DNA from: Acidobacteriota bacterium | Lineage (GTDB): Bacteria > Acidobacteriota > Thermoanaerobaculia > Multivoradales > UBA5704 | Direction of reading: 5' to 3' | DNA length: 38,374 bases | NCBI GenBank assembly: GCA_034666805.1 | Contig: JAXDLD010000475.1 | Coordinates: 1 to 38,374, forward strand | Part shown: positions 1,999 through 38,374 of the stretch, piece after piece | How the letters are laid out: every line of letters starts with the position of its first letter | How positions within the stretch are numbered: position 1 is the stretch's first letter | Made by a program: the position numbers and the translations under genes | Notes under the pieces: model-generated | Database searches by the model: none | Seen by the model: the letters and a program-made list of their open reading frames with translations, nothing else | What the model was told of the DNA's origin: nothing

Positions 1999-2249
1999 CG
2001 GATGACCTCCTACGCCCTAGGCGGGCACGACAGGCTTCGCTCCATAAGGGAACGCGCCACGAGGACCCGAGCTTCTCGCCCTGCACCCGGTACCCACCAG
2101 GGAGGGCGGCTCCCCTCAACCATTAACTAACGGACGGATTTCGCGAAGTGGTGAGGCAGAGCTTGGATTGAGGACCGTTTCTCGTGGAGGAGTCCTCGAT
2201 GAGCATCGACCGGCCGGTGGAAACTCCGGGGTCTCGGCGCTTGCGACCG

Positions 2250-3856: not shown

Positions 3857-3956
3857 CGTCAATCCTCCTCAACTAGATCGACGGACGGGCGAAGATTTTT
3901 CCGTCCGGCTCAGAAACGATCTCAGCCTCGGCACCAGTCCCGGAGGAGGTCGCGGC

Positions 3957-4301: not shown

Positions 4302-4531
4302 GACTCCCGAGGCAGGGCGCGAGACGCGAGCTTGGTAAAGACCGGATCGGGCTCAGAGGGCTCCCGGTCGTAGACCTCGTTCAGCCGCCGGGTCACCTCG
4401 TCATCATCGTGCCGCTCCAGGTAGGCGCGAAGCGCGATGGAGTACAGGTGACTTCTAGAGACACCGAGCCGCTGAGCCAAACGCTCCCCCGCCTCGAACA
4501 CGGGATCAGGAACGGAGATGGCCGTTTTCAT
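4292..4531 (-). CDS. ribbon-helix-helix (CopG/MazE-like) antitoxin
   Basis: Internal Met of ORF 4292..4627: MKTAISVPDPVFEAGERLAQRLGVSRSHLYSIALRAYLE has an RHH beta-strand/helix pattern. Its stop overlaps the mazF-like start. Confidence 0.7.
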   Translation of the reverse strand: MKTAISVPDPVFEAGERLAQRLGVSRSHLYSIALRAYLERHDDDEVTRRLNEVYDREPSEPDPVFTKLASRALPRESWK

Positions 4532-9191: not shown

Positions 9192-9260
9192 AAAGTCCCC
9201 CTTTCGGACTCGGATCGAACGGTTCATCAGGTCCTCATTTCAGTTTTCAGAGACTCTACC

Positions 9261-11465: not shown

Positions 11466-11474
11466 GAAGCCTCC

Positions 11475-13676
11475 TTATCGTTTCGCCATGACGAACGGGA
11501 TCGAGCTCGTCTGCCGAGCCCCGGAGCCGGAGGTCACGCTGATCTCGAGCTGGTACTCGCCGGGGGCGAGCTCCGGCCCCTTGAGGCTCGCCGTCAGCCG
11601 GTCGGGGCGGGCGGCGCTCCCGCGCTCGCGGTCGGTGACGGTCAAGACCGCCGGCTGCATCTCCTTGCCGTCGGCGCCCAGGACCTTGGCGGAGGCATGG
11701 ACCTCGCCCTCGCCCAGGTTGTAGACGACTAAGGAGAGCTTCGCGTCCCGCCCCGCCCCGAGCACCGGCCGGGAGGCCGGGATGTAGGGCTCCTCCCGCA
11801 TCATGAACGGATAGGGCACCTCCTGCCCGGCGGCCACCGCCCCGCGCTGGGCCTCGCGGGTCAGGAGCCAGCGGCCCGGCGGCTCGGGGAAGAAGGGGGG
11901 AAGGAGGAACGGACCGGCCTGGGCGAACGCCGGCACCTTGACCGCCACCACCTTCAAGCCGTAGGCGCCGGTCTTGCCGTTCCTTACCAGCACCCGGAGC
12001 GAATAGTCGCCCGCCGGCAGGTCCAGATGGCCGAAGAACTTCAAGCCGCCCTGCTTGACCTGGGGACCGACCTTGACGAGGTCGAGCCCGAGGTTCTGTG
12101 AGAAGAAGTCGCGCACGGCGCCGGCGCCGTCCAGGGCATAGGAGTAGATCTCGGTGGGCACGACGTCCCCCGGCTGGTTGGCGAGGAGGCCCGGGCCGTC
12201 GACCTCGATCAGGACCGGGACGTAGGCCGCCGCCCCGGCAGCGGGCCGGAAGGCCGCCGCCAGCACCGAGGTCGCGATCGCCCCGCCCTCGGTGCCGCCG
12301 ACGATCGCGTCGGCGGCGTCGAGCATCCGCTCGAGCGGGTTCCTCTGGGCGAAGGGCTTGGGGGCGTAGTAGCCGGGCTTGGCGACCACCCGGGTGCCGC
12401 GCGGCGCGCTCTTCAATCCCACCGTGATGCGGTGGTAGGCGCCATCGAGCTTCAGGTCCTCGGGCTGCACGGTGAGGACGTAGGTGACGCTCGTGCGGGT
12501 GAGCATCTGCCCCATGGCGCCGCCCAAGTCGTTGTAGTTCTCATAGAGTTCGCCGCCCGTCTCCTTGGCCAGGCTGAAGAGGGCCTCCCGGCCGTTGCCC
12601 GCCCCGCCGCCGCGCAGGCCGCCGATGTCGACCGCCTGGATGACGCAGTCGGCGCGGCGGAGCTCCTCGAAGGTCTTCTCCAGCCGGTTGAGGGTCCGGG
12701 TGTCGCCGTGGCGCGCCTCGGTGTCGGTCGCCCAGGGCTGGGTCGCCGGGTCGACGGTGGCGGTCGGGTTGACGGGATCGGCCTGGGTCTGCTGCTGCAT
12801 CTCGTCCCGGCTCTCCACCCTGCCGGTCATGAGCGAGCCATCGAACCCCTCGGAGAGGTAGACGACGTACTTGCGCCCGTCGACGTTGCCCAGGGTCTTG
12901 GCGAGGTCGGCAAGCGAGCGGGAGAGGGCGAGGACGCGGTTCTGCTGCTCCTGCCGGTTCTGCCGGTCGGCCTGGGCCCCGAGGGCCGAGCCCGGGGCGC
13001 CGAATGCGTCCGTGCCGAGGCTCGGATCCGGGCTCCCGTTGGCGGTGCCCAAGTCCTGCTGGCCGCCGACCGCCGGGACCTGCGCCACCACCAGGCGCAG
13101 GGGATCGGCCGTCTTGCCGCGGTCGAGCGGCCGGCCGAGGTTCTCGATCGCCCAGTCGATCTGCCGGCGGTCGGAGGTGAAGTCGAGGGCGAGCTGCGAG
13201 CCCTGGGCCGCGCTGTAGGTGACGACCGCCACGAGATCGCTCGGGTGGAGCGCTTTCAAGACCAGGTCGCGGGCCGCCTGGCGGGCTTTGACGATCGACT
13301 TGGGATCGGAGAAGGCGAAGTCGAAGAGAAGGAGGAAGTGCCGCCGCGCGGCGATTGCCAGAGGCGCCAGAGGCGCGAGCGCCGCCGTCCCCGGCTGGTT
13401 CGAGGCGGTGGCCAGGTCGACGACGTCGAAGCCGGTCACCTTGAGCTTCTTGCGCCCCTCGGCGACCTCGAAGTCGGCGGCGGCAAGTCCGCGCACCGGC
13501 TGGCCGTCCTTGACGACCTCGACCGGGATCTCGATCGCGACGACGTTGGTGGCAGCGCCGGCGAAGCGCTCGGCCGCCGCCTCCGGAACGGCGGGGAGGG
13601 CCGTCATCCCCATCGTCCCCAGGGCAAACACGAGGAGAGGTCCCGCGGCAGGCGGCAGGAAACGGCGGCAAGACAT
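11475..13676 (-). CDS. exported VWA-domain protein, paralog 3 (MIDAS-degenerate)
   Basis: Same architecture as paralogs 1 and 2, but the metal-site motif reads FDFAFSDPKS. Only 9 nt separate its stop from the paralog 2 start. Confidence 0.85.
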   Translation of the reverse strand: MSCRRFLPPAAGPLLVFALGTMGMTALPAVPEAAAERFAGAATNVVAIEIPVEVVKDGQPVRGLAAADFEVAEGRKKLKVTGFDVVDLATASNQPGTAALAPLAPLAIAARRHFLLLFDFAFSDPKSIVKARQAARDLVLKALHPSDLVAVVTYSAAQGSQLALDFTSDRRQIDWAIENLGRPLDRGKTADPLRLVVAQVPAVGGQQDLGTANGSPDPSLGTDAFGAPGSALGAQADRQNRQEQQNRVLALSRSLADLAKTLGNVDGRKYVVYLSEGFDGSLMTGRVESRDEMQQQTQADPVNPTATVDPATQPWATDTEARHGDTRTLNRLEKTFEELRRADCVIQAVDIGGLRGGGAGNGREALFSLAKETGGELYENYNDLGGAMGQMLTRTSVTYVLTVQPEDLKLDGAYHRITVGLKSAPRGTRVVAKPGYYAPKPFAQRNPLERMLDAADAIVGGTEGGAIATSVLAAAFRPAAGAAAYVPVLIEVDGPGLLANQPGDVVPTEIYSYALDGAGAVRDFFSQNLGLDLVKVGPQVKQGGLKFFGHLDLPAGDYSLRVLVRNGKTGAYGLKVVAVKVPAFAQAGPFLLPPFFPEPPGRWLLTREAQRGAVAAGQEVPYPFMMREEPYIPASRPVLGAGRDAKLSLVVYNLGEGEVHASAKVLGADGKEMQPAVLTVTDRERGSAARPDRLTASLKGPELAPGEYQLEISVTSGSGARQTSSIPFVMAKR

Positions 13677-13706: not shown

Positions 13707-16028
13707 TCAGTTGACGACGAACGGGACGGAGCTCTCCCGCTTGCTGCCGGTCGCCGGGTTGCTGACCGCCACCCGGAGGACGTAGTCGCCCGCCGGCAGG
13801 CCCCGGGGCTCGAAGGTGGCGAGGAGCTTGTCGACCCCCGCGATGCCGGTCGCGGTGCGCTCGACGAGCGACAGGAGCCCGCCGGGCAGCACCTGCCCCT
13901 GGGCGGAGAGGACCTCGCCGTCGACCGCCAGCTTGCCGGCGCCCATGTTGTAGGCCACCAGGCAGAGCTTCGCCTTCTTCTCGCTCGACAGGGAGGGTCG
14001 GGCGGCGGGCACGTAGGGCTGGCCGTTGACGGTGAAGGGGTAGACGACCGAGCCGGACCCCTCCCCCGCGGCGCCCCCCTTCGGATGCTCGCGCACCATG
14101 AGCCAGCGGCCCGGCGCCTCGAAGAAGAGGGGGGGCAGGAGGTCGGGCTGCGCCTCGCCGTAGGCGGGGACGACGAGCGCCGAGTTCGCCGTCCCCGTCC
14201 GCCCGGTGTCGGCGTTCCGGACGAGGACCCGCACCCGGTACTGCCCGGGCGGGAGGTCCAGGTGACCGTAGTACTTGACCCCGGAGTCGAGGAGAGCCTG
14301 GCGCCCCTTCGCCACGTCGAGACCGAAGACCTGGGTGAAGAAGTCCTTCATCTCGCCGCGCTGGTTGGTGACGTAGGTGTAGAGCTCGAGCTTGAGCTTG
14401 TCGCCCTTCTGGCCGGCGAGGAGGCCCTTCCCCCCGGCCTCGATGATCACCGGCACGTAGGCGCGGTCGCGGGCGGCACGGAACGGCGCCACCAGGAGCG
14501 AGATGTCGACGTCTCGCCGCGGCACGGCGCTCAGGATGCCGTCCGAGGCGAGCAGGTTGCGCTCCAGGGCATCGAGCGAGCGGAACGGCCGCGGCGCGTA
14601 GTAGCCGGTGCGGTAGGAGAGCCGGGCGCCGGCCGGCAGCTTGGCCTTGACCCGCAGCCGGTGGTAGGCGCCGTCGAGCTTCAGGTCGCTGCGCTCGAAG
14701 GTCAGGAGGTAGGTGACGGTCGTCCGGTCGAGCACCCGGTCGAGCTGCTGGCGCAGGTTGTTGGCATCCTTGAACAGCTCGCCGCCGGTCTCGTTGGCCA
14801 TGTAGAAGAGCGCGTCCTGGCCGGTGTTGCGGATCGAGCCCGAGAGGTCGGCCCCGGCGCGCAGGCCGCCGATGTCGACCGCCTGGATGACGCAGTCGGC
14901 GCGGCGGAACTGCTCGAGCATGTCGTTGACCGACTTCTGGAGCTGGGTGTTGCCGAAGCGGTTGTCGCTGTCCACCCGCTCGTGGTGGCCCTCCAGGATG
15001 TCGGAATTCTCCTCTTCGGACTCGCTCCCCTCGGGGTTGCGGCCAAGGAGCAGCCGGCTGTCGAAACCCTCGGAGAAGTAGATCAGGTACTTGCGCCCCT
15101 TGACGCTGTCTAAGGCCTTCGCCAGGTCCCCCATCGAGCGGGCGAGCGCCTTGATCCGGGTGCGCTCGAAGCTGCGCTGGTCGCGGTCGGCCGCCTTGCC
15201 CACCGCCTTGATGCTCTCCAAGAGCGCCGCCTCGGTGTCCGCCCGGAGCTCGGCCGACTGGGGGGAGGTGTTGGAGTCCCGCGCGGTGCCGACGACGGTA
15301 TCCGACACCGGCTCCTCAATGACGAAGCGCAGGGGATCGACGCGCTGGGTCGACTGCGCGAGCTGGCGCGTTCCCAGGGTGTCGATGCCGCGCGCGAGCT
15401 GCGCCCGGTCGGAGGTGAAGGTGACGACCAGGCGCGGGCCGGTGTCGATCGAGAAGGTGGCGACGGCGGCGAGATCGGTGGGACGCAGAGACTGGAGGAG
15501 GAAGTCGCGCGCCGCCAGGCGGGCTTTCAACACGGCGATGGGATTCGAGAACGAGAGGTCGAAGAGCAGGAGGAAGTGGCGCCGGGCCGAGGAGACCGGT
15601 TCGGCGGCGGGGGGCGGCGGCACGGGCGCCGCCTGGGCGGCCGGCGGGGGGGAGAGGGTTTCCAGGTCCACCACCTCGAAGCCGGTGACCGGTTGCGCCG
15701 CGCCCTCGTCGTAGACCTCGAAGTCGGTGGCCTTGAGGCCGCGCACCGGCTGGCCGTCGCGCCCGGTGACGTTGACCGGCACCTCGACGGCTAAGACCTG
15801 CGAGGTGTCCTCGAACCGCTCCCTGGGGCCGGTCGCTTTCGGCGGCGTGCCGGTTGCCGGGGGTGGCGCCGGAGTCGCCGGGGTCGCCGAGGTGGCCGGC
15901 GGCGGCAGCGAGGGAGTGGCGGCGGCCACGGGCGACATTGGAGCCAGGAGGGCCAGGGGGAACGCCAGGAGGGCGATCGCCAGGGACAGGGGCTTCTGGG
16001 CGGGCATCTTCTGGGCGGGCATCGTCAT
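13707..16028 (-). CDS. exported VWA-domain protein, paralog 4 (divergent, canonical DxSxS MIDAS)
   Basis: Start placed at MTMPAQKMPAQKPLSLAIALLAFPLALLAP (GGAGAGG SD; avoids overlap with the upstream gene); the track start is 16190. Pro/Ala/Thr-rich linker, then RRHFLLLFDLSFSNP, RKYLIYFSEGFDS, CVIQAVDIGG. Confidence 0.85.
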   Translation of the reverse strand: MTMPAQKMPAQKPLSLAIALLAFPLALLAPMSPVAAATPSLPPPATSATPATPAPPPATGTPPKATGPRERFEDTSQVLAVEVPVNVTGRDGQPVRGLKATDFEVYDEGAAQPVTGFEVVDLETLSPPPAAQAAPVPPPPAAEPVSSARRHFLLLFDLSFSNPIAVLKARLAARDFLLQSLRPTDLAAVATFSIDTGPRLVVTFTSDRAQLARGIDTLGTRQLAQSTQRVDPLRFVIEEPVSDTVVGTARDSNTSPQSAELRADTEAALLESIKAVGKAADRDQRSFERTRIKALARSMGDLAKALDSVKGRKYLIYFSEGFDSRLLLGRNPEGSESEEENSDILEGHHERVDSDNRFGNTQLQKSVNDMLEQFRRADCVIQAVDIGGLRAGADLSGSIRNTGQDALFYMANETGGELFKDANNLRQQLDRVLDRTTVTYLLTFERSDLKLDGAYHRLRVKAKLPAGARLSYRTGYYAPRPFRSLDALERNLLASDGILSAVPRRDVDISLLVAPFRAARDRAYVPVIIEAGGKGLLAGQKGDKLKLELYTYVTNQRGEMKDFFTQVFGLDVAKGRQALLDSGVKYYGHLDLPPGQYRVRVLVRNADTGRTGTANSALVVPAYGEAQPDLLPPLFFEAPGRWLMVREHPKGGAAGEGSGSVVYPFTVNGQPYVPAARPSLSSEKKAKLCLVAYNMGAGKLAVDGEVLSAQGQVLPGGLLSLVERTATGIAGVDKLLATFEPRGLPAGDYVLRVAVSNPATGSKRESSVPFVVN

Positions 16029-16092
16029 CGGACCTCTCCGGGAAAGAGGCGGGACCGCTTCGGCAGCGCGGAGGGAACGGCGGCGCGCTCTG

Positions 16093-17190
16093 TCACTTTG
16101 CCAACATGCGGGCGAGCTCGCGAGCCTCCGGGTTGGTGGCGTCGAGCGTGAGAGCCCGCTCCAGGTGGTGCCGGGCCTTGTCCATTTCACCCAGCGCCAA
16201 GTATACCTTGACGAACCCCACGTGGACTTCGGGGATCTCGCTGTCCTGCTTGAAGGCCCGCGTCATGTATTCGAGGGCCTTCTGGTGGTCGCCGCGGGAG
16301 AGGGCCAGGTCCCCCTCGTAGACGAAGAAGTAGGGATTGGTCGTCTTCGACCCCTCGATCTTCTCGAGGATGGTGGCGGCCTCGCCCTGCCTGCCCAGCT
16401 GCTGGTAGGCGCGGGCGAGGTTGGTCAGGATGAGCTCGTCGTTGGGGTCGATGGCGAGGCCCCGCTGGTAGACCTCGAGGGCGCGGTCGGTCTGCCCCCG
16501 GCGGGCGTAGCACACCCCCAGGTTGTTCAGGGCCTTGGGGAACTCGGGGGCGATCCCGACGGCGACCTCGATCAGCTGCTGGGCCTTCTCGGCGTCGCCG
16601 GCGAGCAGGGCCTCGGCCCCCAGGTTGTTGTAGAAGTGGGCCGCGGCCGTGCGGTCGTCGATCGGCCTGAAGCTCTTGTAGGCCTTGGGCTTGAAGGGCA
16701 GGAAGTCGAACGTCGCGAGCTGGCCGTTGACGTAGACGCCGGCGACGATGTGCCCCTGGCTGATGACCAGGCCGCCGCGCCGGTTCCACTTCTGGAGGTC
16801 GGTGACCTCGACGTAGAACGGGTTCAACCCCTCCGCCCGCGCGATCCCCACGAACAGGTTGACGAAGGAGAGGCAGTTGCCCTCGCGGTCGCGGTAGGTC
16901 TCGACGGCGTTGCGGGTCGGCAGCAGGGAGTACTGGAGGCCGAGCCGGTTGAAGATGTAGTCGCGGACGGTGACGAGGCGCGTCATGTCGGCGGCGCCGG
17001 CGCCGAACTTCTTCGGCAGCTTGGCGCGGATCTCGTCGTTCAGATCGTAGGGGATGGCGATCTTCGCGGCGCGGTCGGCCCCCACCCGCCGCGCAAACTC
17101 GGCCCGGAGATGCCCCACCGAGTCGAAGGGCTGATACTCGGCACAGCCGAGGAACAGGAGAAGGAGAAGAGGCTGGAACCGACGCCACAT
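16093..17190 (-). CDS. lipoprotein with transglutaminase-like cysteine-protease core and C-terminal TPR repeats
   Basis: Internal Met MWRRFQPLLLLLFLGC (lipobox). Cys-His-Asp arrangement EGNCLSFVNLF...SQGHIVAG...ATFDF. The C-terminal half shows TPR periodicity (ALNNLGVCYARRGQTDRALEVYQRGLAIDPND...). Confidence 0.75.
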   Translation of the reverse strand: MWRRFQPLLLLLFLGCAEYQPFDSVGHLRAEFARRVGADRAAKIAIPYDLNDEIRAKLPKKFGAGAADMTRLVTVRDYIFNRLGLQYSLLPTRNAVETYRDREGNCLSFVNLFVGIARAEGLNPFYVEVTDLQKWNRRGGLVISQGHIVAGVYVNGQLATFDFLPFKPKAYKSFRPIDDRTAAAHFYNNLGAEALLAGDAEKAQQLIEVAVGIAPEFPKALNNLGVCYARRGQTDRALEVYQRGLAIDPNDELILTNLARAYQQLGRQGEAATILEKIEGSKTTNPYFFVYEGDLALSRGDHQKALEYMTRAFKQDSEIPEVHVGFVKVYLALGEMDKARHHLERALTLDATNPEARELARMLAK

Positions 17191-23975: not shown

Positions 23976-26297
23976 ATGGCGACGAACTGTACTTCCGAGC
24001 CGCTCGGGCGGAGGGGGGCGTTCCGCTCCACTCTCTTCACCCTCGTCGCCCTGGCGACCGTCCTCTCCGGCTGCCGGCACGCTCCGACCTACCCGGGAGC
24101 GCCGATCATCCTGATCTCGATCGACACCCTGCGCTCGGACCACCTGCCCGCCTACGGCTACGCCGGGGTGGAGACGCCGGCGATCGACGCTCTGCGCCGC
24201 GACGCCATCCTCTGCCAGCGGGCCTTCAGCCACTACCCCATGACGCTCCCCTCGCACGCCTCGATCCTCTCGGGGCTCCTCCCCACCCAGCACGGGGTGC
24301 GCGACAACGTGGGCTATCCCTTCGACTCCGAGCACCACAAGACCCTCGCCGGACTGCTCAAGGCCGCCGGATACGAGACCGGGGGAGCGGTCTCGACCTA
24401 CGTCCTCCGCCATTCGACCGGCATCGCCGCCGGCTTCGACTTCTACGAGGACTCGCTGGAGGTCCAGGGGGGCGAACGGCTCGACGAGGTGCAGCGGCCG
24501 GGCAGCGAGACCGCCCGGCTCGGTCTCGACTGGATCCGCGGCCGGATGTCAGAGAAATCGGGAAAGCCGTTCTTCTTCTTCCTCCACCTCTACGAGCCGC
24601 ACACCCCCTACAAGCCGCCGGAGCCCTGGAAGTCGCGCTACCGGGACCGCCCCTACGACGGCGAGATCGCCACCGCCGACGCAATCGTCGGCAACTTCCT
24701 CTCCGAGCTCAAGAAGCTGGGGGTCTACGATCGCGCCGCCGTCGTCCTGCTCTCGGACCACGGCGAGGGGTTGAACGACCACGGCGAGCGGCAGCACGGG
24801 ATCTTCCTCTATCGCGAGACCCTCCAGGTGCCGCTCCTCCTGAAGCTGCCGGGCAGCGAGCACAAGGGGGAGACGATCGCCGCTCCGGTCGAGCTGGCCG
24901 ACGTCGCCCCCACCCTCCTGGCGCTCGCCGGGGTCGCCCGGCCGCCCGAGATGACCGGCCTCCCCCTCTCGGACGTCCTCGGCGGCAAGGCGCCGACGCG
25001 GGAGATCTACTCCGAGACCTTCTATCCGCGCCTCCACCTCGGCTGGAGCGATCTCGCCTCCCTGATCGGCGAGCGCTATCACTACATCGACGGCCCGGAC
25101 CCGGAGCTCTACGACCTCCAACGCGACCATGGCGAGACGGCGAACCTGCGCGACCAGGAGCGCCGGACCTTCGCCGCGATGCGCGGCGACATCAAGCCCT
25201 ACGACCGCAACCTGGCGCCGCCGCACGCGGTCAAGGACCAGGAGACGATCCAGAAGCTCGCCTCGCTCGGCTATCTCGGCGGCTCTTCCGCCGTCACCCG
25301 CGGCACCCTCCCCGATCCCAAGAGCCAGCGCCAGGCCTTGGCCGGGCTCGAGGAGGCCTTCGAGCACGTCCAGGCGGGCGACGACGCCGCGGCGGCCCTG
25401 AGCTTCGAGCGCCTGGTGGCCGCCAACCCCAAGATGGCGGACGTCTGGGCCTTCCTCGCCTTCACCCTGCAGCGGCAGAAGCGGCATGAGGAGGCGAGCC
25501 GCGCCTTCGAGAAGGCGCTCTCGCTGTCGAACGGCACCCCGTCGCTCGCGGTCGCCGCCGCCGCCTCCCTGATCGCCCTGGGGAGGCTCGACGACGCCCG
25601 CGCCCACGCCGAGCTGGCGATGAAGGGGAACCCGGGCGGGGCCTACGACATCCTCGTCCAGGTGGCGCTCGCCCGCCACGACGAAAAAGGCGCGCTCGAC
25701 CTCATCAAGCGGGCGGTCGACTCCGGGGTGGCGAGCCCGGGCCTGCGCCAGCGCTACGTCCTCCTCCTCGCCGGCCAGGGCGATCCGCAGCAGGCGATCG
25801 CGGCCTTGAAGCCGCTCGCCGACCGCGGCGACCCGGAGGCGATCGGCGCCCTCGCCACCTCGCTCTCGGACACCGGGCGCAATCCGGAGGCGGAGGCGCT
25901 CCTGACCCAGCTCCTCACCCACCAGCCGGAAAACGCCCGGGCCCACGAGCTCCTGGGGATGGTGACTCTCCGCCTCGACCGCACGGCCGAGGCGCGCAAG
26001 GAGCTCGAACGCTCGCTCGCGCTCGACGGCAAGCGGGCCTCGGCCTGGAACACCCTCGGGGTCGCCCTCTACCGGCTGGAGGGTCCGGGGCCGGCCTTGA
26101 CCGCCTGGCAGAAGTCGGTGGCCTTGGACCCCACCCAATATGACGCGCTCCTGAACATCGGCCTGGTCGCCGCCCAGGCCGGGCGCCGGGCCGAGGCCTC
26201 CCGGGCCCTCCACCAGTTCCTCGCCACGGCGCCGGCCGACCGCTTCGCCGAGGATCGCCAGAAGGCTCGCGGCCTCCTGCGGGAGATCGGCGGATGA
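23976..26297 (+). CDS. sulfatase-like AP-superfamily + TPR fusion lipoprotein, paralog 2
   Basis: Lipobox LSGC. ILISIDTLRSDHLPAYGY, TLPSHASILSGLLPTQHGVRDN, LSDHGEGLNDHGERQHG. C-terminal TPRs. Start lies 2 nt after the paralog 1 stop. Confidence 0.85.
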   Translation: MATNCTSEPLGRRGAFRSTLFTLVALATVLSGCRHAPTYPGAPIILISIDTLRSDHLPAYGYAGVETPAIDALRRDAILCQRAFSHYPMTLPSHASILSGLLPTQHGVRDNVGYPFDSEHHKTLAGLLKAAGYETGGAVSTYVLRHSTGIAAGFDFYEDSLEVQGGERLDEVQRPGSETARLGLDWIRGRMSEKSGKPFFFFLHLYEPHTPYKPPEPWKSRYRDRPYDGEIATADAIVGNFLSELKKLGVYDRAAVVLLSDHGEGLNDHGERQHGIFLYRETLQVPLLLKLPGSEHKGETIAAPVELADVAPTLLALAGVARPPEMTGLPLSDVLGGKAPTREIYSETFYPRLHLGWSDLASLIGERYHYIDGPDPELYDLQRDHGETANLRDQERRTFAAMRGDIKPYDRNLAPPHAVKDQETIQKLASLGYLGGSSAVTRGTLPDPKSQRQALAGLEEAFEHVQAGDDAAAALSFERLVAANPKMADVWAFLAFTLQRQKRHEEASRAFEKALSLSNGTPSLAVAAAASLIALGRLDDARAHAELAMKGNPGGAYDILVQVALARHDEKGALDLIKRAVDSGVASPGLRQRYVLLLAGQGDPQQAIAALKPLADRGDPEAIGALATSLSDTGRNPEAEALLTQLLTHQPENARAHELLGMVTLRLDRTAEARKELERSLALDGKRASAWNTLGVALYRLEGPGPALTAWQKSVALDPTQYDALLNIGLVAAQAGRRAEASRALHQFLATAPADRFAEDRQKARGLLREIGG

Positions 26298-31472: not shown

Positions 31473-32000
31473 ATGGATGAAGACTCACGGCAGGAACAGG
31501 AGGAAGTGGCGCGAGCGATCAAGCTCATCGAAGGCGTCATGCGGGTGCAGGGGGTGACCAAGAAGATCCTCGACGAGCGGCTGGGCAAGTCCCCCGGCTA
31601 CTTCGCGCAGGTGCTCTCCGGCCGCCTGGAGCTCAAGTACCGGCACATCCTCGCCATCCTGCGCGGGCTGGACCTGGAGCCGCGCGTCTTCTTCCGCTCG
31701 CTTTTCCCGGAGCCGGGGGAGCCCGTCTCCGGCGCCCGCATGCTGGAGCGGCTCTTCGCCGAGCTCCAGCGGAGCGGCTACGGCACCTACCTCTCCCCGC
31801 CGCCGTCCCTTTCGCCCCTCTCTCCGCCGGCAGTGCCGGCCTTCGCGCCCTCGCCGGCGGCCTCCCTGCCGGCGATCGACGCCGACGACCTCGACCGCCG
31901 CATCCAGGCCGCGGTCGCCGCGGCCCTGGCGGCGCGCGACGCGCGGGGTGAGCGCGAGGGCCAGCGCGTCGAAGCCGTCGAAGCCGGCTCGACCCGCTAG
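31473..32000 (+). CDS. XRE-like helix-turn-helix protein with Pro/Ala-rich C-terminal half
   Basis: GVTKKILDERLGKSPGYFAQVLSGRLELKYRHILAILRGL resembles an HTH_3-type motif. Divergent from the ASPIC/UnbV gene. Confidence 0.5.
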   Translation: MDEDSRQEQEEVARAIKLIEGVMRVQGVTKKILDERLGKSPGYFAQVLSGRLELKYRHILAILRGLDLEPRVFFRSLFPEPGEPVSGARMLERLFAELQRSGYGTYLSPPPSLSPLSPPAVPAFAPSPAASLPAIDADDLDRRIQAAVAAALAARDARGEREGQRVEAVEAGSTR

Positions 32001-33622: not shown

Positions 33623-35302
33623 ATGAAAAAACTTCTCGCTCTCGCAGTCCTCGGCCTCGGCATCGCCTCCGGCGCGGCCCGAGCGGACGTCCAGCCCGCG
33701 CATCCCGCGCTCCCCCCGGTCGCCCCCAAGGCCGCCGCCCCCAAGGCCGCCGCTCCGGGGCCGGCCAGCCCGATCCAGAAGAAGCTGGAGGAGGCCTTGA
33801 ACCGGATGGACAAGAACGACGACGCCGGAGCCATCCAGATCCTCGAGGCCCTGAAAAAAGACCCCGACGTCACCCCGCCCGTCCTCGCCCTCCTGGGCGC
33901 GCTCTACTTGAAGACCAACCGGCCGAAGGAGGCGATGGCGATCCTGAAGCCGCTCGCCGACGCCGCCGACGCCGACCCGGCGGTGCTCTTCAACGCCGGG
34001 CGGGCGGCCTTCGCCCTCGGCCAGGGCCCCGAGGGCGAGCACTACCTCGGGCGCTCGGTCGCGCTGGCTCCGGGCTCGCCGGCCGCCCGCACCCTGGGCC
34101 TCCTGCTCGCCCGCCAGGGTCGATCGGTGGCCGCCTTCGACGTCCTCATTCCCTGGGTGCAGGCCAATCCCACCGACTTCGAGGCCCGGCTCGCCACCGC
34201 CCTCCTGGCCGCCAACCTGCAGCGTCTGGCCGATGCCGAGGAGCTGCTCAAGGATCTGCCGGCCAACAACCCGAAGGTCCGGCTGCTCAAGGGCGACCTC
34301 GCCCTCCGCAAGGGGGACGCCAAGGCCGCCATCGCGACCCTCCGGCCGCTCGTCGACAGCCCGCCGCCGGGTTTCGACACCAGCGGCGGGATGCAGCTCG
34401 ACGCCCGCCGGCTCCTGGCCGACGCCTACCTGCGGACCGGGCAGTCCACCGAGGCGGTCAAGCTCCTCGCCGGCAAGGGGGGTGACGCCCCCACCGCCCT
34501 GCTCCTTGCCCGGGCCCAGTACCAGAGCGGCAATCTCCAGGCCGGGCTCGCCACCCTCACGCCCTACGCCCCCAAGATCCTGAAGGCGGGCCAGCCGCGC
34601 GACCCCGACCTCGTCGCCGAGATGGCGCTCGCCTACGGGCGGATGCTCGCCGCCGCCAACCGGCAGCCGGAGGCGGCGAGCGCCTTGGCCGTCGCCACCC
34701 GCCTGGACCCCGACAGCACGGAGGCCTGGCAGGCCTACGGGCAGACCCTGACCGCCCTCGGCAAGAAGGACGAGGCCGGCAAGGCCCTCGCCCGCTTCCG
34801 CGACCTCTCCGCCGCCCGCACGAAAGCCAAGGCCCCGGCGGCGCCGGCCGTCGACCCGGTGGTCGCCCTGATGGAGAAGGGCGAGCTCGACAAAGCCGTC
34901 GCCGCGGCCCGTGAGCAGATCAAGGCGACGCCCAAGGACCTCGGCCCGCGGGCCCTGGAGGTGCGCATCCTGCTCCTCCAGAAGCATCCCGACGAGGCCC
35001 TGAAGGCCGCCCAGCGGATGGTCGACCTCGCCCCCGGCAGCCCGGACGCGATCTATGCCCGCGGGGTCTGCCAGCTCGCCCTCCAGAAGGCCAAGGAGGC
35101 GGAGGCGGACTTCCGGCAGGCCCTGAAGCTCCAGCCCCAGTACCTGCCGGCCATGAACGACTTGGCGGTGCTGCTCATGCTGCAGGGCCAGAAGGCGGAG
35201 GCGAGGACCCTGCTCCAGAAGGTGCTCAAGGCGCACCCCGACGACAAGCTGGCGGCCGAGAACCTGAAGAAGCTCGACACCGAGGGCAAGGCGGGCGGGT
35301 GA
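33623..35302 (+). CDS. exported TPR-repeat protein
   Basis: Genuine part of track ORF 32069..35302. GAGGAAG SD; signal peptide MKKLLALAVLGLGIASGAARA. Multiple TPR-like helical repeats (...AWQAYGQTLTALGKKDEAGKALARF..., AIYARGVCQLALQKAKEAEADFRQALKLQPQY). Confidence 0.75.
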   Translation: MKKLLALAVLGLGIASGAARADVQPAHPALPPVAPKAAAPKAAAPGPASPIQKKLEEALNRMDKNDDAGAIQILEALKKDPDVTPPVLALLGALYLKTNRPKEAMAILKPLADAADADPAVLFNAGRAAFALGQGPEGEHYLGRSVALAPGSPAARTLGLLLARQGRSVAAFDVLIPWVQANPTDFEARLATALLAANLQRLADAEELLKDLPANNPKVRLLKGDLALRKGDAKAAIATLRPLVDSPPPGFDTSGGMQLDARRLLADAYLRTGQSTEAVKLLAGKGGDAPTALLLARAQYQSGNLQAGLATLTPYAPKILKAGQPRDPDLVAEMALAYGRMLAAANRQPEAASALAVATRLDPDSTEAWQAYGQTLTALGKKDEAGKALARFRDLSAARTKAKAPAAPAVDPVVALMEKGELDKAVAAAREQIKATPKDLGPRALEVRILLLQKHPDEALKAAQRMVDLAPGSPDAIYARGVCQLALQKAKEAEADFRQALKLQPQYLPAMNDLAVLLMLQGQKAEARTLLQKVLKAHPDDKLAAENLKKLDTEGKAGG

Positions 35303-37047
35303 GGGCGGGTCGACTCCTCCTCGCCGTCACCCTGCTCGTAGCGGCGGCCGGCGCCGCCCGCCCGGCGACTCCGGCGGCTCCGGCGGCAGGCGAGGACCCG
35401 CTGGCGGCGCTCGCCACCCGGCTGGGCGAGGCCGGCCCCGATCTCCTCCCCCGGCTCCAGGCCGACCTGGGCGCCGCCGCCGCCGCCCGCGCCCGCCGGC
35501 TCGCCGCCCAGGGGGAAGCCGCCTGGACCGACCGCGAGATCGCCGATCTCCTCCGCCTCTCGCTCCTCGACCCGCCCCGCTTCGTCGACGACCCCGCCTT
35601 CCGGGAGCGGGCCCTGGGAGTTCTCGCGCAGTCCCTCGACCGGCAGGCGCCGGCCGCCCTCCGCGACCGCCTGCTCGACCAGCTCGGCGGCTTTCCGGGC
35701 TTCGACTTCGCCGCCGGAGAGCGGGTGGGCTGGGCCTGGGGAGCCCTGCCGCGGCGGAGCTCCGAGCGCCAGATCGACACCCCCGCGCTCGCCGGCCCTC
35801 CCCTCCGTTTCGACGCCGACGACGGCGGGGACGGCCGCTCGCTCGCCGCCTCCGTCTACTCGCTCCCCTCGGCCTTCTTCGACGCCGGGACGGCGGCGGC
35901 CTTCCTCGCCGGGGTGCGGGCTGTGGACCCGGAGCGGCGGATCGTCGTCCTCGCCGATCTCGCCCAGGTCCGGGCCCTGGCCGACCGGGGGCGCGCCCTG
36001 CACGCCGACCTCCTCCTGAACCACGGCCGCTCCTACTCGCCCTGGCCGCGCGACCCGTTCAGCCTCGTCCATAGGGGGGAGGGCCGGAGCGGCCGGGTGG
36101 TGGTCCTCGTGCGGCCGAACCTCCAGCCCGGGCGGGAGGAGGACGCGAGCCTCGGCCCGGAGCTGGTGCAGGACCTCCCCCCGGCCCTGGACGCCGCCTG
36201 GGGGGAGCCCCGCTGGGCCCGCGCGCCGGTGCCCTTCCACAACGGCCAGGTGCTGCTCACGGCGGGCGCCGCCTGGATCACGCTCCATACCCTGGAGCCG
36301 CGTATCCTCGCCCTCCTCGGGGAGAGCCGGGTGCCGGTCGCGAGCTTCGCCACCGCGGCGGGGATCGCCCGTTATCTCGACGCGGCCCGCCGCGCCACCT
36401 CGGAGCTCGCCGACCTCTACGGCCGCTCGGTCCGCTTCGTCCATCCTCTCCCCACCGCCGGCTCGGCCCTCGTGACGACCCTCGGGGGCGGCGCCGGCTA
36501 CGATCTCGACTCGCTCGTCACCCTGCTTCCCCCCCGCGCTCCGGGAGGCAAGCCGCAGGCGCTCGTCGCCGACGTAGCGGCCGGCCGCGCCCTCCTCGCC
36601 CGGCTCCCAGCCGCCGACTGGCAGGCGCTCGCCGCGGGCTACGGCCTCCAGGCGGAAGGCCTGGCACCGGCGATGACCGCCGCCCAGCGCGCGCCGCGGC
36701 CGGAGGCCCTGGCCCCGTACCTCGACCTCATCGCCATCCACTTGAAGAGCCTGGGATTCGCCGTCGACCGCCTGCCCCTCCTCTTCGTGCCGGTCCCTCT
36801 CCTGCGGGACACCGGGGGCCTCGACTACCCCGATTTCCTCCTCACCTGGAACAACGTGGTCGTGGAGAAGCGGGCCGGGAAGGTGCGGGCGGAGGGGTTT
36901 GCTTCCCTCCTGCCGGCCGGCGACGCCATCGCGCGGGAGGTTTTCGTCCGCGCCGGGGTCCACCTCGACCTCCTGCCGCCACTGGTCCAGAGCGTCGTGC
37001 GGAACGGCGGCTACCGCTGCGCCTCGAACCACCTGCGCAACGGTTAG
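35299..37047 (+). CDS. exported protein with guanidino-group-modifying (pentein; agmatine/peptidyl-arginine deiminase-like) features
   Basis: GTGA start/stop overlap with the TPR gene; signal peptide MRAGRLLLAVTLLVAAAGAA. Motifs reminiscent of the deiminase fold: SPWPRDPF, PFHNGQVL, LTWNNVVV, and C-terminal NGGYRCASNH (GGxxxC catalytic-Cys-like). The family call is tentative. Confidence 0.5.
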   Translation: MRAGRLLLAVTLLVAAAGAARPATPAAPAAGEDPLAALATRLGEAGPDLLPRLQADLGAAAAARARRLAAQGEAAWTDREIADLLRLSLLDPPRFVDDPAFRERALGVLAQSLDRQAPAALRDRLLDQLGGFPGFDFAAGERVGWAWGALPRRSSERQIDTPALAGPPLRFDADDGGDGRSLAASVYSLPSAFFDAGTAAAFLAGVRAVDPERRIVVLADLAQVRALADRGRALHADLLLNHGRSYSPWPRDPFSLVHRGEGRSGRVVVLVRPNLQPGREEDASLGPELVQDLPPALDAAWGEPRWARAPVPFHNGQVLLTAGAAWITLHTLEPRILALLGESRVPVASFATAAGIARYLDAARRATSELADLYGRSVRFVHPLPTAGSALVTTLGGGAGYDLDSLVTLLPPRAPGGKPQALVADVAAGRALLARLPAADWQALAAGYGLQAEGLAPAMTAAQRAPRPEALAPYLDLIAIHLKSLGFAVDRLPLLFVPVPLLRDTGGLDYPDFLLTWNNVVVEKRAGKVRAEGFASLLPAGDAIAREVFVRAGVHLDLLPPLVQSVVRNGGYRCASNHLRNG

Positions 37048-37256
37048 AGCGCGGCAGGATCGGAATCGTTTGTACAGGGGAGGAGCAGGGGGGAGGACAG
37101 GAGGGGGGTGGCATCGCGAAGCTTCCTACCGCTTCCTGCCGCGCAGGCTCCTAGCTAGCAACCATAGGTAATGGGTTCGTCCACACAGAATTTGGGACAG
37201 GAGACGTCGGTGCTCTCGACCTGTACCGGCGCCGCACCCAGCCGTGCGGCTGTGGG

Positions 37257-37288
37257 GCGCTCCGCTCCTCGGCCGAGGAGCGGAGCGC
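37257..37288 (-). terminator. perfect 32-nt palindrome (16-bp arms) about 20 nt downstream of precursor gene A
   Basis: GCGCTCCGCTCCTCGG|CCGAGGAGCGGAGCGC read directly from the sequence. No U-tract, so it could be a terminator, an RNA-stabilising hairpin or a protein-binding palindrome. Confidence 0.45.
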
Positions 37289-37308
37289 AGGCCTTCCGTG
37301 AGTAACTC

Positions 37309-37455
37309 CTAACAGAAAGCGCAGGCCGTCTGCGCACAGTTGGTGCACGCCGAGACCGTGCCGGCACCCTCCGCTTCCTTAACCTGCTCCTGATCGAGTC
37401 GGCGGATCGACTCTTTGTGCACCACGAGCTTCTTGACGGTTGCCTTCTTCTTCAT
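37309..37455 (-). CDS. small Cys-rich peptide precursor A (48 aa) with Lys-rich double-glycine-type leader
   Basis: Internal Met of track ORF 37309..37563, preceded by GGAGGTG 6 nt upstream. MKKKATVKKLVVHKESIRRLDQEQVKEAEGAG|TVSACTNCAQTACAFC. The leader is shared with peptide B. Confidence 0.7.
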   Translation of the reverse strand: MKKKATVKKLVVHKESIRRLDQEQVKEAEGAGTVSACTNCAQTACAFC

Positions 37456-37578
37456 TGGCTCACCTCCGAGGCTTTGAGGCACTATTGCCTTCTGCCCTTG
37501 AGCATATTGCAAATGGCGAGCCTCGGGCGAGGCCAAACGCCGGCGGCCATCGGCGGCGAGCAACGCGGAACCGGTCGC

Positions 37579-37683
37579 GAGACACTACGGCGGGCGGTTG
37601 AGGCGCAAGAGCCTCGCCTGGAGACACTACGGAAGGTCGTTGAGACACAAGAGGGGGCTTTGGAGACACTACGGGAGGTCGTG
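37579..37683. repeat. tandem array R3a: five 21-nt units (42-nt super-unit) with core GAGACAC on the + strand
   Basis: Units start at 37579, 37600, 37621, 37642 and 37663 in exact 21-nt register, alternating GAGACACTACGG and GAGRCRCAAGAG. This is the reverse complement of the R3b unit. Confidence 0.85.
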
Positions 37684-37734
37684 GGGTCCTGTCCCAACAG
37701 TCTGTTGGTGGTACAGGGGCGTAAGTTGAGGGAA

Positions 37735-37766
37735 GGGGGAGGGTCTGCGCGGGGAGACCCTCCCCC
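37735..37766 (-). terminator. GC hairpin (10-12 bp stem, 8-nt loop) 10 nt downstream of precursor gene B
   Basis: GGGGGAGGGTCT-GCGCGGGG-AGACCCTCCCCC. A second imperfect palindrome (CCTGT-C-CCAACAG-T-CTGTTGG-TGGT-ACAGG) follows at ~37688..37718. Confidence 0.45.
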
Positions 37767-37775
37767 TGGGACTGG

Positions 37776-37934
37776 CTAGCAAGGGTACCGGCCACTCTGG
37801 CAGATAACGGGGTCGGTGGGGGGGCATCGGAACGTGTTGCAGTTGTCGGTGATAGCCCCTCCGACCACTGTTGCGCTGGTTAGCGCTACCGTCTCCTTCG
37901 ACAACACCAGCTTCTTCACAGCCTTCTTCTTCAT
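37776..37934 (-). CDS. small Cys-rich peptide precursor B (52 aa) with double-glycine leader (not in the ORF track)
   Basis: Translated codon by codon by hand: MKKKAVKKLVLSKETVALTSATVVGG|AITDNCNTFRCPPTDPVICQSGRYPC, with TAG at 37776..37778. AAGGAGG lies 6 nt upstream of the ATG. Confidence 0.7.
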   Translation of the reverse strand: MKKKAVKKLVLSKETVALTSATVVGGAITDNCNTFRCPPTDPVICQSGRYPC

Positions 37935-38034
37935 GAGTCCTCCTTGAAGGGCTGGATTCTATCTCAGCTTGGGTATCCCGGCAGTGGCCGGCGGTGGCGC
38001 CAACAGACTCTTAGGACAGTACCCCAGGCGGACT

Positions 38035-38236
38035 TCTTGTGTCTCCAGGCTTCCGCTAGTGTCTCCAGCCCGACTTCTTGTGTCTCCACGGCGTTCCGTA
38101 GTGTCTATAAGCCCGACTCTCATGTCTCCAGGACCGTCGGTAGTGTCTCCAGGCGAAGTTCTTGTGTCTCCGCGGCCCTCGGTAGTGTCCATAAACCCCT
38201 CCCCCGGGCCTGGAGACCGGGCCGTTGTGTCTCCAG
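38035..38236. repeat. tandem array R3b: ten 21-nt units (42-nt super-unit) with core GTGTCTCC on the + strand, inverted relative to R3a
   Basis: Cores at 38039, 38059, 38080, 38101, 38122, 38143, 38164, 38185, (38206 degenerate/inverted GGAGAC) and 38227. They alternate CTTGTGTCTCC and GTAGTGTCTCC. Confidence 0.9.
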
Positions 38237-38317
38237 GATGAACTCACAACCGTCGCCGAGTGGCCTGATCCCTTAAACGTCCTCCCGTCGTGGCCGAGAT
38301 GGCGTAGAATCTAAGAG

Positions 38318-38374
38318 ATGGAAGCGATCGAGGCCGAGACCCTCCTGAAGCAGGTGACGCGCCAGATCGTCGAG
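38318..38374 (+). CDS. 5' end of an unidentified gene running off the window
   Basis: ATG at 38318 (MEAIEAETLLKQVTRQIVE...), open to the window end. A TAGAAT hexamer ends 7 nt upstream, so the transcript may be leaderless. Too short to identify. Confidence 0.3.
   Translation, partial: MEAIEAETLLKQVTRQIVE

What the first reader, a model, noticed from the sequence alone, without database searches (positions are those of the whole stretch)
37579..38236. Inverted 21/42-nt tandem arrays (R3a, R3b) bracket precursor gene B and lie upstream of both precursor genes
R3b has ten units in exact 21-nt register, alternating CTTGTGTCTCC... and GTAGTGTCTCC.... It lies 101-302 nt upstream of gene B. R3a has five units of the reverse complement (GAGACACTACGG / GAGACACAAGAG), again in exact 21-nt register. 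It lies 124-228 nt upstream of gene A and ~93 nt downstream of gene B. Each peptide gene therefore has its own upstream array, but with opposite polarity, and gene B with its hairpins is enclosed by long inverted repeats. Three readings are possible. (i) Phased operator arrays for a regulator controlling peptide expression, with 8-mer cores on one helical face every two turns. (ii) Inverted repeats allowing recombinational inversion or deletion of the gene-B cassette (phase or cassette variation). (iii) Arrays that expand and contract as a contingency switch. I know of no described RiPP or bacteriocin locus with this architecture.
Basis: seen in the sequence. Interest (0 to 1): 0.75.

Follow-up and report, generated by a model that had tools for sequence, protein, structure and literature searches.

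The report
Dispersed 21-bp phased repeat element
The two inverted repeat arrays around the small peptide gene are real, but they are the two arms of one copy of a previously undescribed repeat element found at many unrelated intergenic sites in Thermoanaerobaculia (Acidobacteriota) genomes, so they are not a dedicated control device for the peptide genes.

Summary
The arrays exist at the stated coordinates. R3b has nine forward units plus one special slot. R3a has five reversed units. The period is 21 nt apart from one 20-nt step. They are not specific to the peptide genes. The same 11-nt core, T[A/T]GTGTCTCCA, in strict 21-nt phase builds ~0.5-kb elements at 12 or more other places in Acidobacteriota/Thermoanaerobaculia MAGs and soil metagenomes. 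Several lie in one genome, beside unrelated genes. The usual form is two arrays abutting head to head. One arm ends in a conserved cap, and R3b carries that cap. None of those loci has a KKL-leader peptide gene. None of 14 contigs carrying homologues of peptides A or B has this array. In the window the gene B cassette, with its own 26-nt inverted repeats, sits where the arms normally meet. The core is conserved while the linkers drift. Indels come in whole units. 92% of core spacings are multiples of 21. The arms are non-coding and show no RNA structure. The best reading is a DNA-level, one-face landing pad for an unidentified DNA-binding protein. That step is inferred, not shown. Inversion is unsupported. 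Copy number changes only between relatives. This is a new variant of interspersed intergenic repeats, of moderate interest.

The parts
37579..37683 (-). R3a, the short arm (Arm-2) of the element. It has five 21-nt slots with cores read on the minus strand (37579, 37600 degenerate, 37621, 37642, 37663) and no terminal cap.
37682..37708 (.). Left copy of a 26-27-nt inverted repeat bounding the central insert. It contains the 15-nt palindrome CCAACAGTCTGTTGG (37694-37708).
   Evidence: (I4, D8). It was found only in the window and L002.
37734..37767 (.). Perfect 13-bp stem hairpin just downstream of gene B, with the look of a terminator.
   Evidence: (I13)
37776..37934 (-). Gene B, a 52-aa Cys-rich peptide with a KKLxLSKE leader and a GG motif. 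It lies where the two arms normally abut.
   Evidence: (NF038153 18.2 bits, below the cutoff)
37956..37961 (-). TAGAAT -10-like hexamer 22-27 nt upstream of the gene B ATG. Homologous peptide loci have a TAGAAT/TAGACT hexamer upstream too; only L154-type loci also share the SD block next to the ATG.
   Evidence: inference from conservation
38000..38026 (.). Right copy of the 26-27-nt inverted repeat bounding the central insert.
38037..38237 (+). R3b, the long arm (Arm-1). It has nine forward units plus the cap at 38181-38237: GTAGTGTCCATAAA-CCCCTCCC-CCGGG-CCTGGAGAC-CGGGCCGT-TGTGTCTCC.
38319..38374 (+). Start of a nucleotidyltransferase (MNT-type) gene reading away from the Arm-1 cap. It is 108 aa in L002.
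37309..37455 (-). Gene A, a 48-aa peptide with a class I lanthipeptide-type leader.
   Evidence: NF038153 28.3 bits, cutoff 22
37501..37512 (-). The block TTGCAATATGCT, conserved upstream of gene A homologues that have no arrays. It is the likely promoter of gene A and lies between R3a and the ATG.
   Evidence: inference

Best explanation
R3a and R3b are the two arms of one copy of a dispersed, non-coding repeat element of Thermoanaerobaculia-type Acidobacteriota. Each arm is a run of 21-bp slots. Each slot carries an 11-nt core, T[A/T]GTGTCTCCA, and a roughly 10-nt free linker. The arms point away from each other. They normally abut, with 12 nt between the two central 10-mers. One arm ends in a conserved cap.

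In this copy a small cassette lies between the arms. It consists of a promoter-like -10, gene B and a hairpin, bounded by its own 26-nt inverted repeats. Gene A and the MNT gene are simply the outside neighbours.

The most likely mechanism is inferred, not shown. Twenty-one bp is two turns of B-DNA, so all cores face one side of the helix. They would form a polar landing pad for a sequence-specific DNA-binding protein encoded elsewhere, which coats each arm. The result would be a roughly 0.5-kb nucleoprotein block in intergenic DNA, acting as an architectural or boundary element. Any effect on the peptide genes would be a by-product of position, not a dedicated circuit.
For: Shown:
- Multi-copy and dispersed. 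There are six loci in MAG SMAG_U10817, five in MFD09368.bin.2.205 and one in MFD01213, plus soil contigs L035 and L036. Most have the two-arm head-to-head form, with 8-14 units per arm.
- Phase. 190 of 206 core-to-core spacings are multiples of 21.
- Core versus linker. In 176 slots cut purely by phase, positions 9, 11-17 and 19 carry 1.2-1.95 bits and all other positions 0.74 or less.
- Selection. In the orthologous elements L126/L138 the core differs at 14% of sites and the linker at 30% (Fisher p = 1.7e-4). Their only large indel is 105 nt, exactly five units. L002 differs from the window by three units.
- Cap. It is conserved in seven loci, including R3b, and conservation stops right after the last core.
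- Non-coding. Array ORFs have GC3 of 0.54, against 0.77-0.96 in genes.
- No RNA signal. Single arms fold no better than shuffles, with z from +2.1 to -1.8. Rfam gives nothing.
- Neighbours. They are heterogeneous and face either way, and no protein family recurs.
- No peptide link. No peptide genes occur at other arrays, and no arrays occur at 14 peptide-homologue contigs.
Against: No binding protein is identified, and no binding or expression data exist. Strict phase could partly be a legacy of unit-wise duplication rather than selection. Core conservation could reflect gene conversion or a templated copying process rather than protein contact. Only one orthologous pair gave a significant core/linker contrast; window/L002 is too close to be informative. 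One locus (L128) has a tail-to-tail rather than head-to-head layout. Only 12-15 loci could be examined, because the collection scans were capped.
Confidence: 0.5

Rival explanations
1. It is a selfish or neutral interspersed minisatellite or MITE-like repeat. It spreads and resizes by recombination, slippage or an unknown transposase, and has no host function.
For: It is multi-copy, and unit number changes between relatives. Arm ends are paralogous within one genome: L131/L135 are 95.6% identical over 68 nt, and L135/L138 are 84.7% identical over 282 nt. It is often found beside accessory genes such as TA modules, TIR, CHAT, CRISPR and IS elements. One copy tolerates an IS3 insertion.
Against: Copies share mostly the core, with 65-80% identity overall. 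Linkers differ even between adjacent units, which neutral homogenisation would not produce. The core diverges less than the linker in orthologues. The element is retained at an orthologous site in two genomes. No adjacent transposase recurs. No true arrays were found in viral contigs.
Confidence: 0.2
2. It acts at the RNA level. The arms are transcribed. Either they act as a sponge, since the reverse strand carries a GGAG(ACAC) motif every 21 nt, or the two arms pair to enclose the gene B mRNA in a long stem for processing or stability.
For: A 701-nt minus-strand span covering R3b, gene B and R3a folds with the arms paired, at z = -8.1. R3b lies upstream of gene B, and R3a lies between genes B and A on the coding strand.
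Against: The pairing follows trivially from any inverted repeat. Single arms have no structure. Rfam gives no match. A period of exactly two DNA turns has no meaning for RNA. In most copies the arms abut with nothing between them. Orientation relative to the neighbouring genes is inconsistent. The -10-like hexamers (TAGAAT/TAGACT) shared with homologues of gene B, and the conserved TTGCA block upstream of gene A, lie downstream of the arrays, so the arrays are probably not in the mRNAs.
Confidence: 0.12
3. One reading: these are dedicated phased operator arrays through which a local regulator, for example the HTH protein at 31473-32000, controls the two peptide genes.
For: Both arrays lie upstream of likely promoters: R3b at about -84 to -284 of gene B, and R3a about 70-170 nt upstream of the conserved block of gene A. 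The phasing suits cooperative binding.
Against: Twelve or more array loci have no such peptide genes. Fourteen homologous peptide loci have no such arrays. In homologues of gene B, shared upstream sequence is confined to the promoter-proximal ~40 nt. The arrays face the two genes with opposite polarity. No regulator gene recurs beside the arrays.
Confidence: 0.07
4. One reading: the inverted arms drive inversion or deletion of the gene B cassette, or unit gain and loss acts as a contingency switch.
For: The arms are inverted, at 77% over 104 nt. Unit number differs between relatives.
Against: Orientation is the same in three assemblies: the window, L001 at 99.95% identity and L002 at about 95%. 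The longest exact inverted match is 17 nt. No recombinase gene is seen within the window end or the 10-kb L002 flank. The units are imperfect 21-mers, not the identical short tracts typical of contingency loci. The changes are seen only between diverged lineages.
Confidence: 0.04

Closest known systems
STAR elements of Staphylococcus aureus (interspersed intergenic direct repeats; PMC3532100)
   Same: A short conserved core is repeated with variable linkers at many intergenic loci. The loci are stable in position but expand and contract. Flanking genes are unrelated. The function is unknown but thought to be under constraint.
   Different: STAR has a 14-bp core with spacers of 40 bp or more, and no helical phasing. 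It has no opposed arms and no cap. It occurs in low-GC Firmicutes.
Plasmid and phage iterons, e.g. P1 incC/incA flanking repA, R6K, Vibrio chr2 12-mers (own knowledge); lambda-type ori iterons as in L129
   Same: Non-palindromic sites repeated every 21-22 bp (two turns) on one helical face and bound cooperatively by one protein. Arrays can flank a gene. By chance a TGTGTCTCC-containing motif serves as an apparent ori iteron, with an AT-rich tract, inside a replication-like ORF of a Terriglobia prophage-like contig.
   Different: Here there is no rep gene, no AT-rich unwinding region and no DnaA boxes. There are many copies per chromosome, conserved at orthologous chromosomal sites, with 8-14 units per arm in opposed arms.
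Plasmid centromeres: R1 parC (2 x 5 iterons around a promoter) and F sopC (12 x 43 bp) (own knowledge)
   Same: Long phased arrays, sometimes in two blocks around a central feature, that assemble a protein filament. The 42-43-bp super-period is similar.
   Different: No par genes are adjacent. The element is multi-locus and chromosomal.
BIME/REP clusters and GTAG-tagged REPs mobilised by RAYTs (PMC3733652); pneumococcal BOX elements (own knowledge)
   Same: These are dispersed intergenic mosaics built from a variable number of short units, in head-to-head or tail-to-tail arrangements. The A-type unit even begins with GTAG.
   Different: REP units are palindromic stem-loops. These units are not palindromic, and the arms have no fold. 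No RAYT gene is seen nearby.
Invertible promoter or gene switches such as fimS and hin (own knowledge)
   Same: A short segment is bracketed by inverted repeats.
   Different: Those use short exact inverted repeats plus a dedicated recombinase, and both orientations coexist. None of this is seen here.

Membership tests
Interspersed intergenic repeat family (STAR/BIME-like class) | The same repeat occurs at many unlinked intergenic loci of one genome | tested here: met
   There are six contigs in SMAG_U10817 and five places in MFD09368.bin.2.205. All lie between called genes.
Interspersed intergenic repeat family (STAR/BIME-like class) | Conserved core with variable linker, and copy number that varies between relatives | tested here: met
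   Logos. A 3-unit difference and a 5-unit difference.
Dedicated operator array of the peptide (RiPP-like) locus | The arrays co-occur with homologous peptide genes and are absent elsewhere | tested here: not met
   (arrays without peptide genes). (peptide genes without arrays).
Site-specific invertible switch | Both orientations are present in sequence data | tested here: not met
   Three assemblies show one orientation. Read-level data are not available.
Site-specific invertible switch | An adjacent recombinase gene | tested here: not met
   None appears among the genes called in the last 10 kb of the window or in the 10-kb L002 flank.
Contingency locus (repeat-mediated phase variation) | Identical short units whose number varies within a population and changes promoter spacing or reading frame | tested here: inconclusive
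   The units are imperfect 21-mers. Variation is seen only between lineages of 95% identity or less. Population reads were not testable.
Iteron replication origin | Adjacent initiator gene, AT-rich unwinding element, one per replicon | tested here: not met
   No rep-like neighbour or AT-rich tract is present, and there are many copies per genome.
Plasmid-type partition centromere | Adjacent parA/parB (or parM/R, tubZ/R) genes | tested here: not met
   No protein family recurs beside the arrays. Pfam was run on a sample of neighbours.
MITE / transposon remnant | High identity among copies, terminal inverted repeats with target-site duplication | tested here: inconclusive
   Copies are 65-80% identical, mainly at the cores, and an orthologous site is retained. 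Target-site duplications could not be judged because the Arm-2 ends are ill-defined.
REP / RAYT-mobilised GTAG repeats | GTAG tag next to a 5-13-bp palindromic stem-loop | tested here: not met
   GTAG is present in A-type units, but there is no adjacent palindrome and the arms do not fold. The definition comes from PMC3733652.
CRISPR array | Repeats of 23-50 nt separated by unique spacers of similar length | tested here: not met
   The period is 21 nt, with an 11-nt core and a 10-nt linker. A true CRISPR array for contrast is at L124 3543-6021.
Protein-coding heptad repeat | Open frame with the codon usage of the genome and 3-periodic conservation | tested here: not met
   GC3 is 0.54 against 0.77-0.96 in genes. 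TAG occurs in one frame. Third-position bases of the core are invariant.
Class I lanthipeptide precursor (genes A, B) | Leader matches the NF038153 lant_leader_L1a model | tested here: met
   Gene A scores 28.3 bits against a cutoff of 22. Gene B scores 18.2, below the cutoff.
Class I lanthipeptide precursor (genes A, B) | LanB/LanC genes in the neighbourhood | tested here: inconclusive
   None appears among the 11 window proteins scanned with Pfam, or in the Pfam labels of the genes called next to the peptides. The rest of the window's ORFs were not scanned.

The most novel reading that the evidence does not exclude
Thermoanaerobaculia-type Acidobacteriota may carry a lineage-wide system of 21-bp-phased intergenic arrays. 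It would comprise several core families. The TWGTGTCTCCA family is the multi-copy one. Others are seen at window 2249-2437, L124 2006-2241, L160 2908-3161 and L165 4260-4445. Each family would be the landing pad of its own DNA-binding protein, which polymerises along one helical face. The head-to-head, capped geometry would then define a new kind of bacterial chromatin landmark. It could be a boundary or insulator between core and accessory DNA, a barrier to transcription or replication forks, or a chromosome-organising site.
Probability: 0.2. Interest if true: 0.75.

Novelty: new variant of a known kind. Interest (0 to 1): 0.45.

Why it matters
This removes a tempting but wrong idea, that of a RiPP locus with its own iteron-like control arrays or an invertible cassette. 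It replaces that idea with a concrete, testable object: an undescribed dispersed repeat family in a poorly studied, mostly uncultured class. The family has a sharply defined 11-nt core, strict two-turn phasing, an opposed-arm layout with a cap, and signs of purifying selection. If a binding protein exists, the element would be a new piece of bacterial chromosome architecture. If not, it is a useful marker (VNTR-like) and a known trap for assembly and annotation in these genomes. Either way, the core motif gives a direct handle for DAP-seq, pull-down and whole-genome surveys.

Tried and rejected
- **Coding reading.** The 21 nt could encode 7 aa, and ORFs with xxxVVSP repeats start near the centre. 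I rejected this. GC3 is 0.54, TAG occurs in one frame, and conservation is at the nucleotide level.
- **Known RNA family.** Rfam gave nothing at E-value or gathering thresholds. Single arms have no excess structure.
- **Sigma-70 promoter scan of 37000-38374.** It found no sites. One terminator-like hit is the cap hairpin. I read the upstream regions of genes A and B, and the cap, by eye for a sigma-54 -24/-12 match and found none convincing.
- **T-unit as -35 and A-unit as -10.** The spacer would be only 15 nt, so I did not pursue this.
- **Phage or plasmid origin.** A viral-contig scan gave only chance or unrelated hits.
- **Metagenome scan with three plain cores.** Only L035 and L036 were relatives.
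- **Cis-encoded partner protein.** All-against-all comparison of genes around 14 loci found no recurrent family.
- **tRNA-linked island att site.** Only L131 abuts a tRNA.
- **REP/RAYT membership.** There is a GTAG tag but no palindrome.
- **Conserved cap hairpin.** It pairs well in the window, L002 and L125 but not in L127, L130 or L136. The conservation is therefore of sequence rather than structure.
- **The 26-nt inverted repeat as a peptide-gene operator.** It is absent from all homologous peptide loci.
- **Literature.** Searches for the motif strings and for Acidobacteria or Thermoanaerobaculia repeats found no description.

Full report
**1. Observation.**
Reading 36800-38374 and running TRF and the repeat finder confirm both arrays.
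- R3b carries forward 10-mers T[A/T]GTGTCTCC at 38037, 38057, 38078, 38099, 38120, 38141, 38162, 38183 and 38225.
- R3a carries the reverse complement at 37579, 37600, 37621, 37642 and 37663.
- Three corrections are needed. The first R3b step is 20 nt. Four units are degenerate. The ninth slot is not a forward unit; it holds an inverted degenerate core.
- The clustering is far beyond chance. Ten of the 12 GTGTCTC heptamers in the window lie within 660 nt, where about 0.09 would be expected.

**2. The local picture has to be redrawn.**
A 26-27-nt sequence, CCAACAGNCTSTTRGGACAGKACCCC, lies at the inner end of each array, and the two copies are inverted relative to each other (37682-37708 and 38000-38026). 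Read outward from gene B, both arrays therefore have the same polarity.
- R3b points at a plus-strand gene starting at 38319. In the related contig L002 this gene is a 108-aa nucleotidyltransferase of the MNT type.
- R3a points at gene A.
- Gene B, its hairpin (37734-37767) and a TAGAAT -10-like hexamer (37956-37961) form an insert between the two arrays.

**3. The arrays are a dispersed family.**
A genome-collection scan for TAGTGTCTCC-N10-12-TTGTGTCTC returned 15 loci. Twelve are true arrays in three Acidobacteriota MAGs:
- six contigs of a Thermoanaerobaculia MAG (SMAG_U10817);
- five places in MFD09368.bin.2.205;
- one in MFD01213.

The metagenome scan added soil contigs L035 and L036. Mapping the cores on both strands shows a recurrent anatomy:
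- Two arrays abut head to head, written "-----+++++", with 12 nt between the two central 10-mers.
- Each arm has 8-14 units, about 0.5 kb in all.
- One arm ends in a conserved cap: GTAGTGTCC.nAAA-CYCCTCCC-N5-CCTGGARAC-N8-9-TWGTGTCTCC. The cap aligns across seven loci, and conservation stops right after the last core. R3b 38181-38237 is such a cap, which explains the odd ninth slot.
- One locus (L128) is tail to tail instead.

**4. There is no link to the peptide genes.**
- A six-frame search for KKL-type leaders found them only in the window and L002.
- Conversely, a profile search with peptides A and B found 30 homologues.
- Fourteen contigs carrying four of these homologues (P0006, P0007, P0019, P0023) contain no phased GTGTCTC cluster.
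- Their upstream regions carry a TAGAAT/TAGACT hexamer (the SD block only in L154-type loci), or for A-type genes a TTGCA...CAGAAGGCAATAG block that corresponds to 37501-37512. They share neither the 26-nt repeat nor the arrays.
- Gene A matches the NCBIfam class I lanthipeptide leader model above its cutoff. Gene B falls below it.

**5. What kind of sequence is it?**
- *Phase.* 190 of 206 successive core spacings are 21, 42 or 63 nt, and ten more are off by one.
- *Core versus linker.* Slicing 176 slots purely by phase gives 1.2-1.95 bits at positions 9, 11-17 and 19, and 0.74 bits or less elsewhere.
- *Orthologues.* L126 and L138 are orthologous elements in different genomes, since the sequence flanking the uncapped arm is homologous. 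They align unit for unit and differ by a 105-nt (five-unit) indel. They diverge at 14% of core sites against 30% of linker sites (p = 1.7e-4).
- *Copy number.* L002, about 95% identical to the window, lacks three R3b units.
- *Non-coding.* The array ORFs have GC3 of 0.54, against 0.77-0.96 for genes.
- *No RNA signal.* Single arms fold no better than shuffles. Rfam has no match.
- *Neighbours.* They include aroB, aspS, ABC transporter genes, MNT-HEPN, Phd, TIR and CHAT proteins, an NRPS, Cys-rich secreted proteins, a CRISPR array and a tRNA. They face toward or away from the arms with no rule. No protein family recurs.
- *Insertion.* One array is interrupted by an IS3 element.
- *Viral contigs.* They hold no true copies.

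**6. Mechanism.**
The following are shown: a non-coding element; a conserved 11-nt core; free linkers; exact two-turn phasing kept through degenerate slots and through whole-unit indels; an opposed-arm layout with a cap; vertical retention.

The rest is inferred. The cores lie on one face of B-DNA and serve as a polar, cooperative landing pad for a sequence-specific DNA-binding protein encoded elsewhere. This would give a nucleoprotein block in intergenic DNA. I put about 0.5 on this.

Rivals:
- a host-neutral repeat maintained by recombination or an unknown mobility process (0.2);
- an RNA role (0.12). The 701-nt span does fold with the arms paired (z = -8.1), but that is automatic for inverted repeats, and the likely promoters lie inside the arrays' span, downstream of them;
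- a dedicated peptide operator (0.07);
- an inversion or contingency switch (0.04). Orientation is the same in three assemblies, the longest exact inverted match is 17 nt, and no recombinase is present.

**7. Comparison with known systems.**
- As a class it is closest to interspersed intergenic repeats such as STAR elements (PMC3532100) and BIME/REP clusters (PMC3733652).
- Physically it most resembles iteron and centromere arrays (own knowledge).
- It fails the defining features of origins, par centromeres, REPs, CRISPRs and invertible switches (see the membership table).
- A chance hit of the search pattern, L129/L132, shows a TGTGTCTCC-containing motif used as apparent lambda-type ori iterons inside a replication-like ORF of a Terriglobia prophage-like contig. 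That shows what such a motif can do. It is not evidence of homology.
- Motif-string and topic searches of the paper library found no description of this family.

**8. A wider pattern.**
The same lineage carries other 21/22/42-43-nt intergenic arrays with different cores:
- window 2249-2437 (nine units, the last one inverted);
- L124 2006-2241;
- L160/L162 2908-3161;
- L163 1281-1617;
- L164 1541-1721;
- L165-167 4260-4445.

Several lie near homologous peptide genes. With so little sequence sampled I cannot tell whether that is more than the general abundance of such arrays. This is the basis of the novel case.

**9. Verdict.**
The peptide-centred interpretation is not supported, apart from the general idea of phased binding sites. 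The object is a new variant of a known kind, an interspersed intergenic repeat, with unusually clean geometry. Interest is moderate (0.45).

Noticed in passing
window 2249-2437: A second 21-nt array with a different core (GCCGGGCGAACCTTTCCCGAT). It has about nine units, and the last unit is in inverted orientation, like a cap. It lies between the 391-aa gene (2687-3862, minus strand) and the 297-aa gene (1105-1998, minus strand).
   Followed up: partly
L160 2908-3161 / L162 420-693; L163 1281-1617; L164 1541-1721; L165 4260-4445 (also L166, L167); L154 4478-4531: Contigs with homologues of peptides A/B lack the GTGTCTC arrays but carry other 21/22/42-44-nt tandem arrays with unrelated cores within about 1 kb of the peptide gene. 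Some units are hairpin-forming. I did not establish whether this proximity is more than background.
   Followed up: partly
L124 2006-2241: Another 21-nt array of 11 units (CTCCCTACTTCTGGCGCGTAG) in the same MAG that carries six GTGTCTC elements.
   Followed up: no
L124 3543-6021 and 1-567: A CRISPR array of about 27 copies of a 37-nt repeat (GTCGCAATCCCACCGTACAGATCAGGGCTCTTCCGAC) at 72-80-nt spacing, with a RAMP-like protein fragment. It ends about 400 nt from a GTGTCTC element.
   Followed up: partly
L135 1-340: A low-GC IS3-family OrfA-like gene (read by eye, not checked against Pfam) is inserted next to a truncated array of four units. L135, L138 and L131 share a near-identical arm end (85-96% identity) within one genome.
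   Followed up: partly
L131 4305-4388: A tRNA-Leu(taa) gene abuts the short arm of one element. It is the only tRNA next to any array examined.
   Followed up: yes
L129 6680-6800 (also L132, L140): In a Terriglobia prophage-like contig, TGTGTCTCC-containing repeats in both orientations are followed by an AT-rich tract. They lie inside a 323-aa HTH-containing ORF, a layout like the lambda O gene with its ori. The search pattern picked this up by chance.
   Followed up: partly
window 35299-37047 (+), with L160 4349-6109, L161, L162, L002 10252-12015: A 582-587-aa protein with no Pfam or NCBIfam hit lies next to the A/B-type peptide gene in every relative where enough sequence is available. No LanB/LanC was found among the window proteins scanned. 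It is a possible partner of the peptides.
   Followed up: partly
window 37257-37289: A perfect 16-bp palindrome lies downstream of gene A. All five mismatches between the window and the 99.95%-identical contig L001 fall in this hairpin. This may be an assembly artefact or a hypervariable site.
   Followed up: partly
L126 1207-1698; L035 6113-6439: Related Cys-rich secreted small proteins (motifs SCSGxxxC and xCDGxxxFC) lie beside two different GTGTCTC elements of the same species group.
   Followed up: no
window 7005-13676 and 13707-16190: Three tandem paralogous genes of 733-740 aa, about 77% identical at the DNA level, with no Pfam hit for the one tested. A more distant fourth copy follows.
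   Followed up: no
window 25229-25315: ARAGORN calls a tRNA-Ser(aga) inside the high-GC3 773-aa ORF 23976-26297 (not scanned against Pfam). This is probably a false positive.
   Followed up: no
window 3957-4301: A MazF/PemK toxin gene. Together with MNT, Phd and PIN genes in L002, it shows that the region is rich in toxin-antitoxin modules.
   Followed up: no
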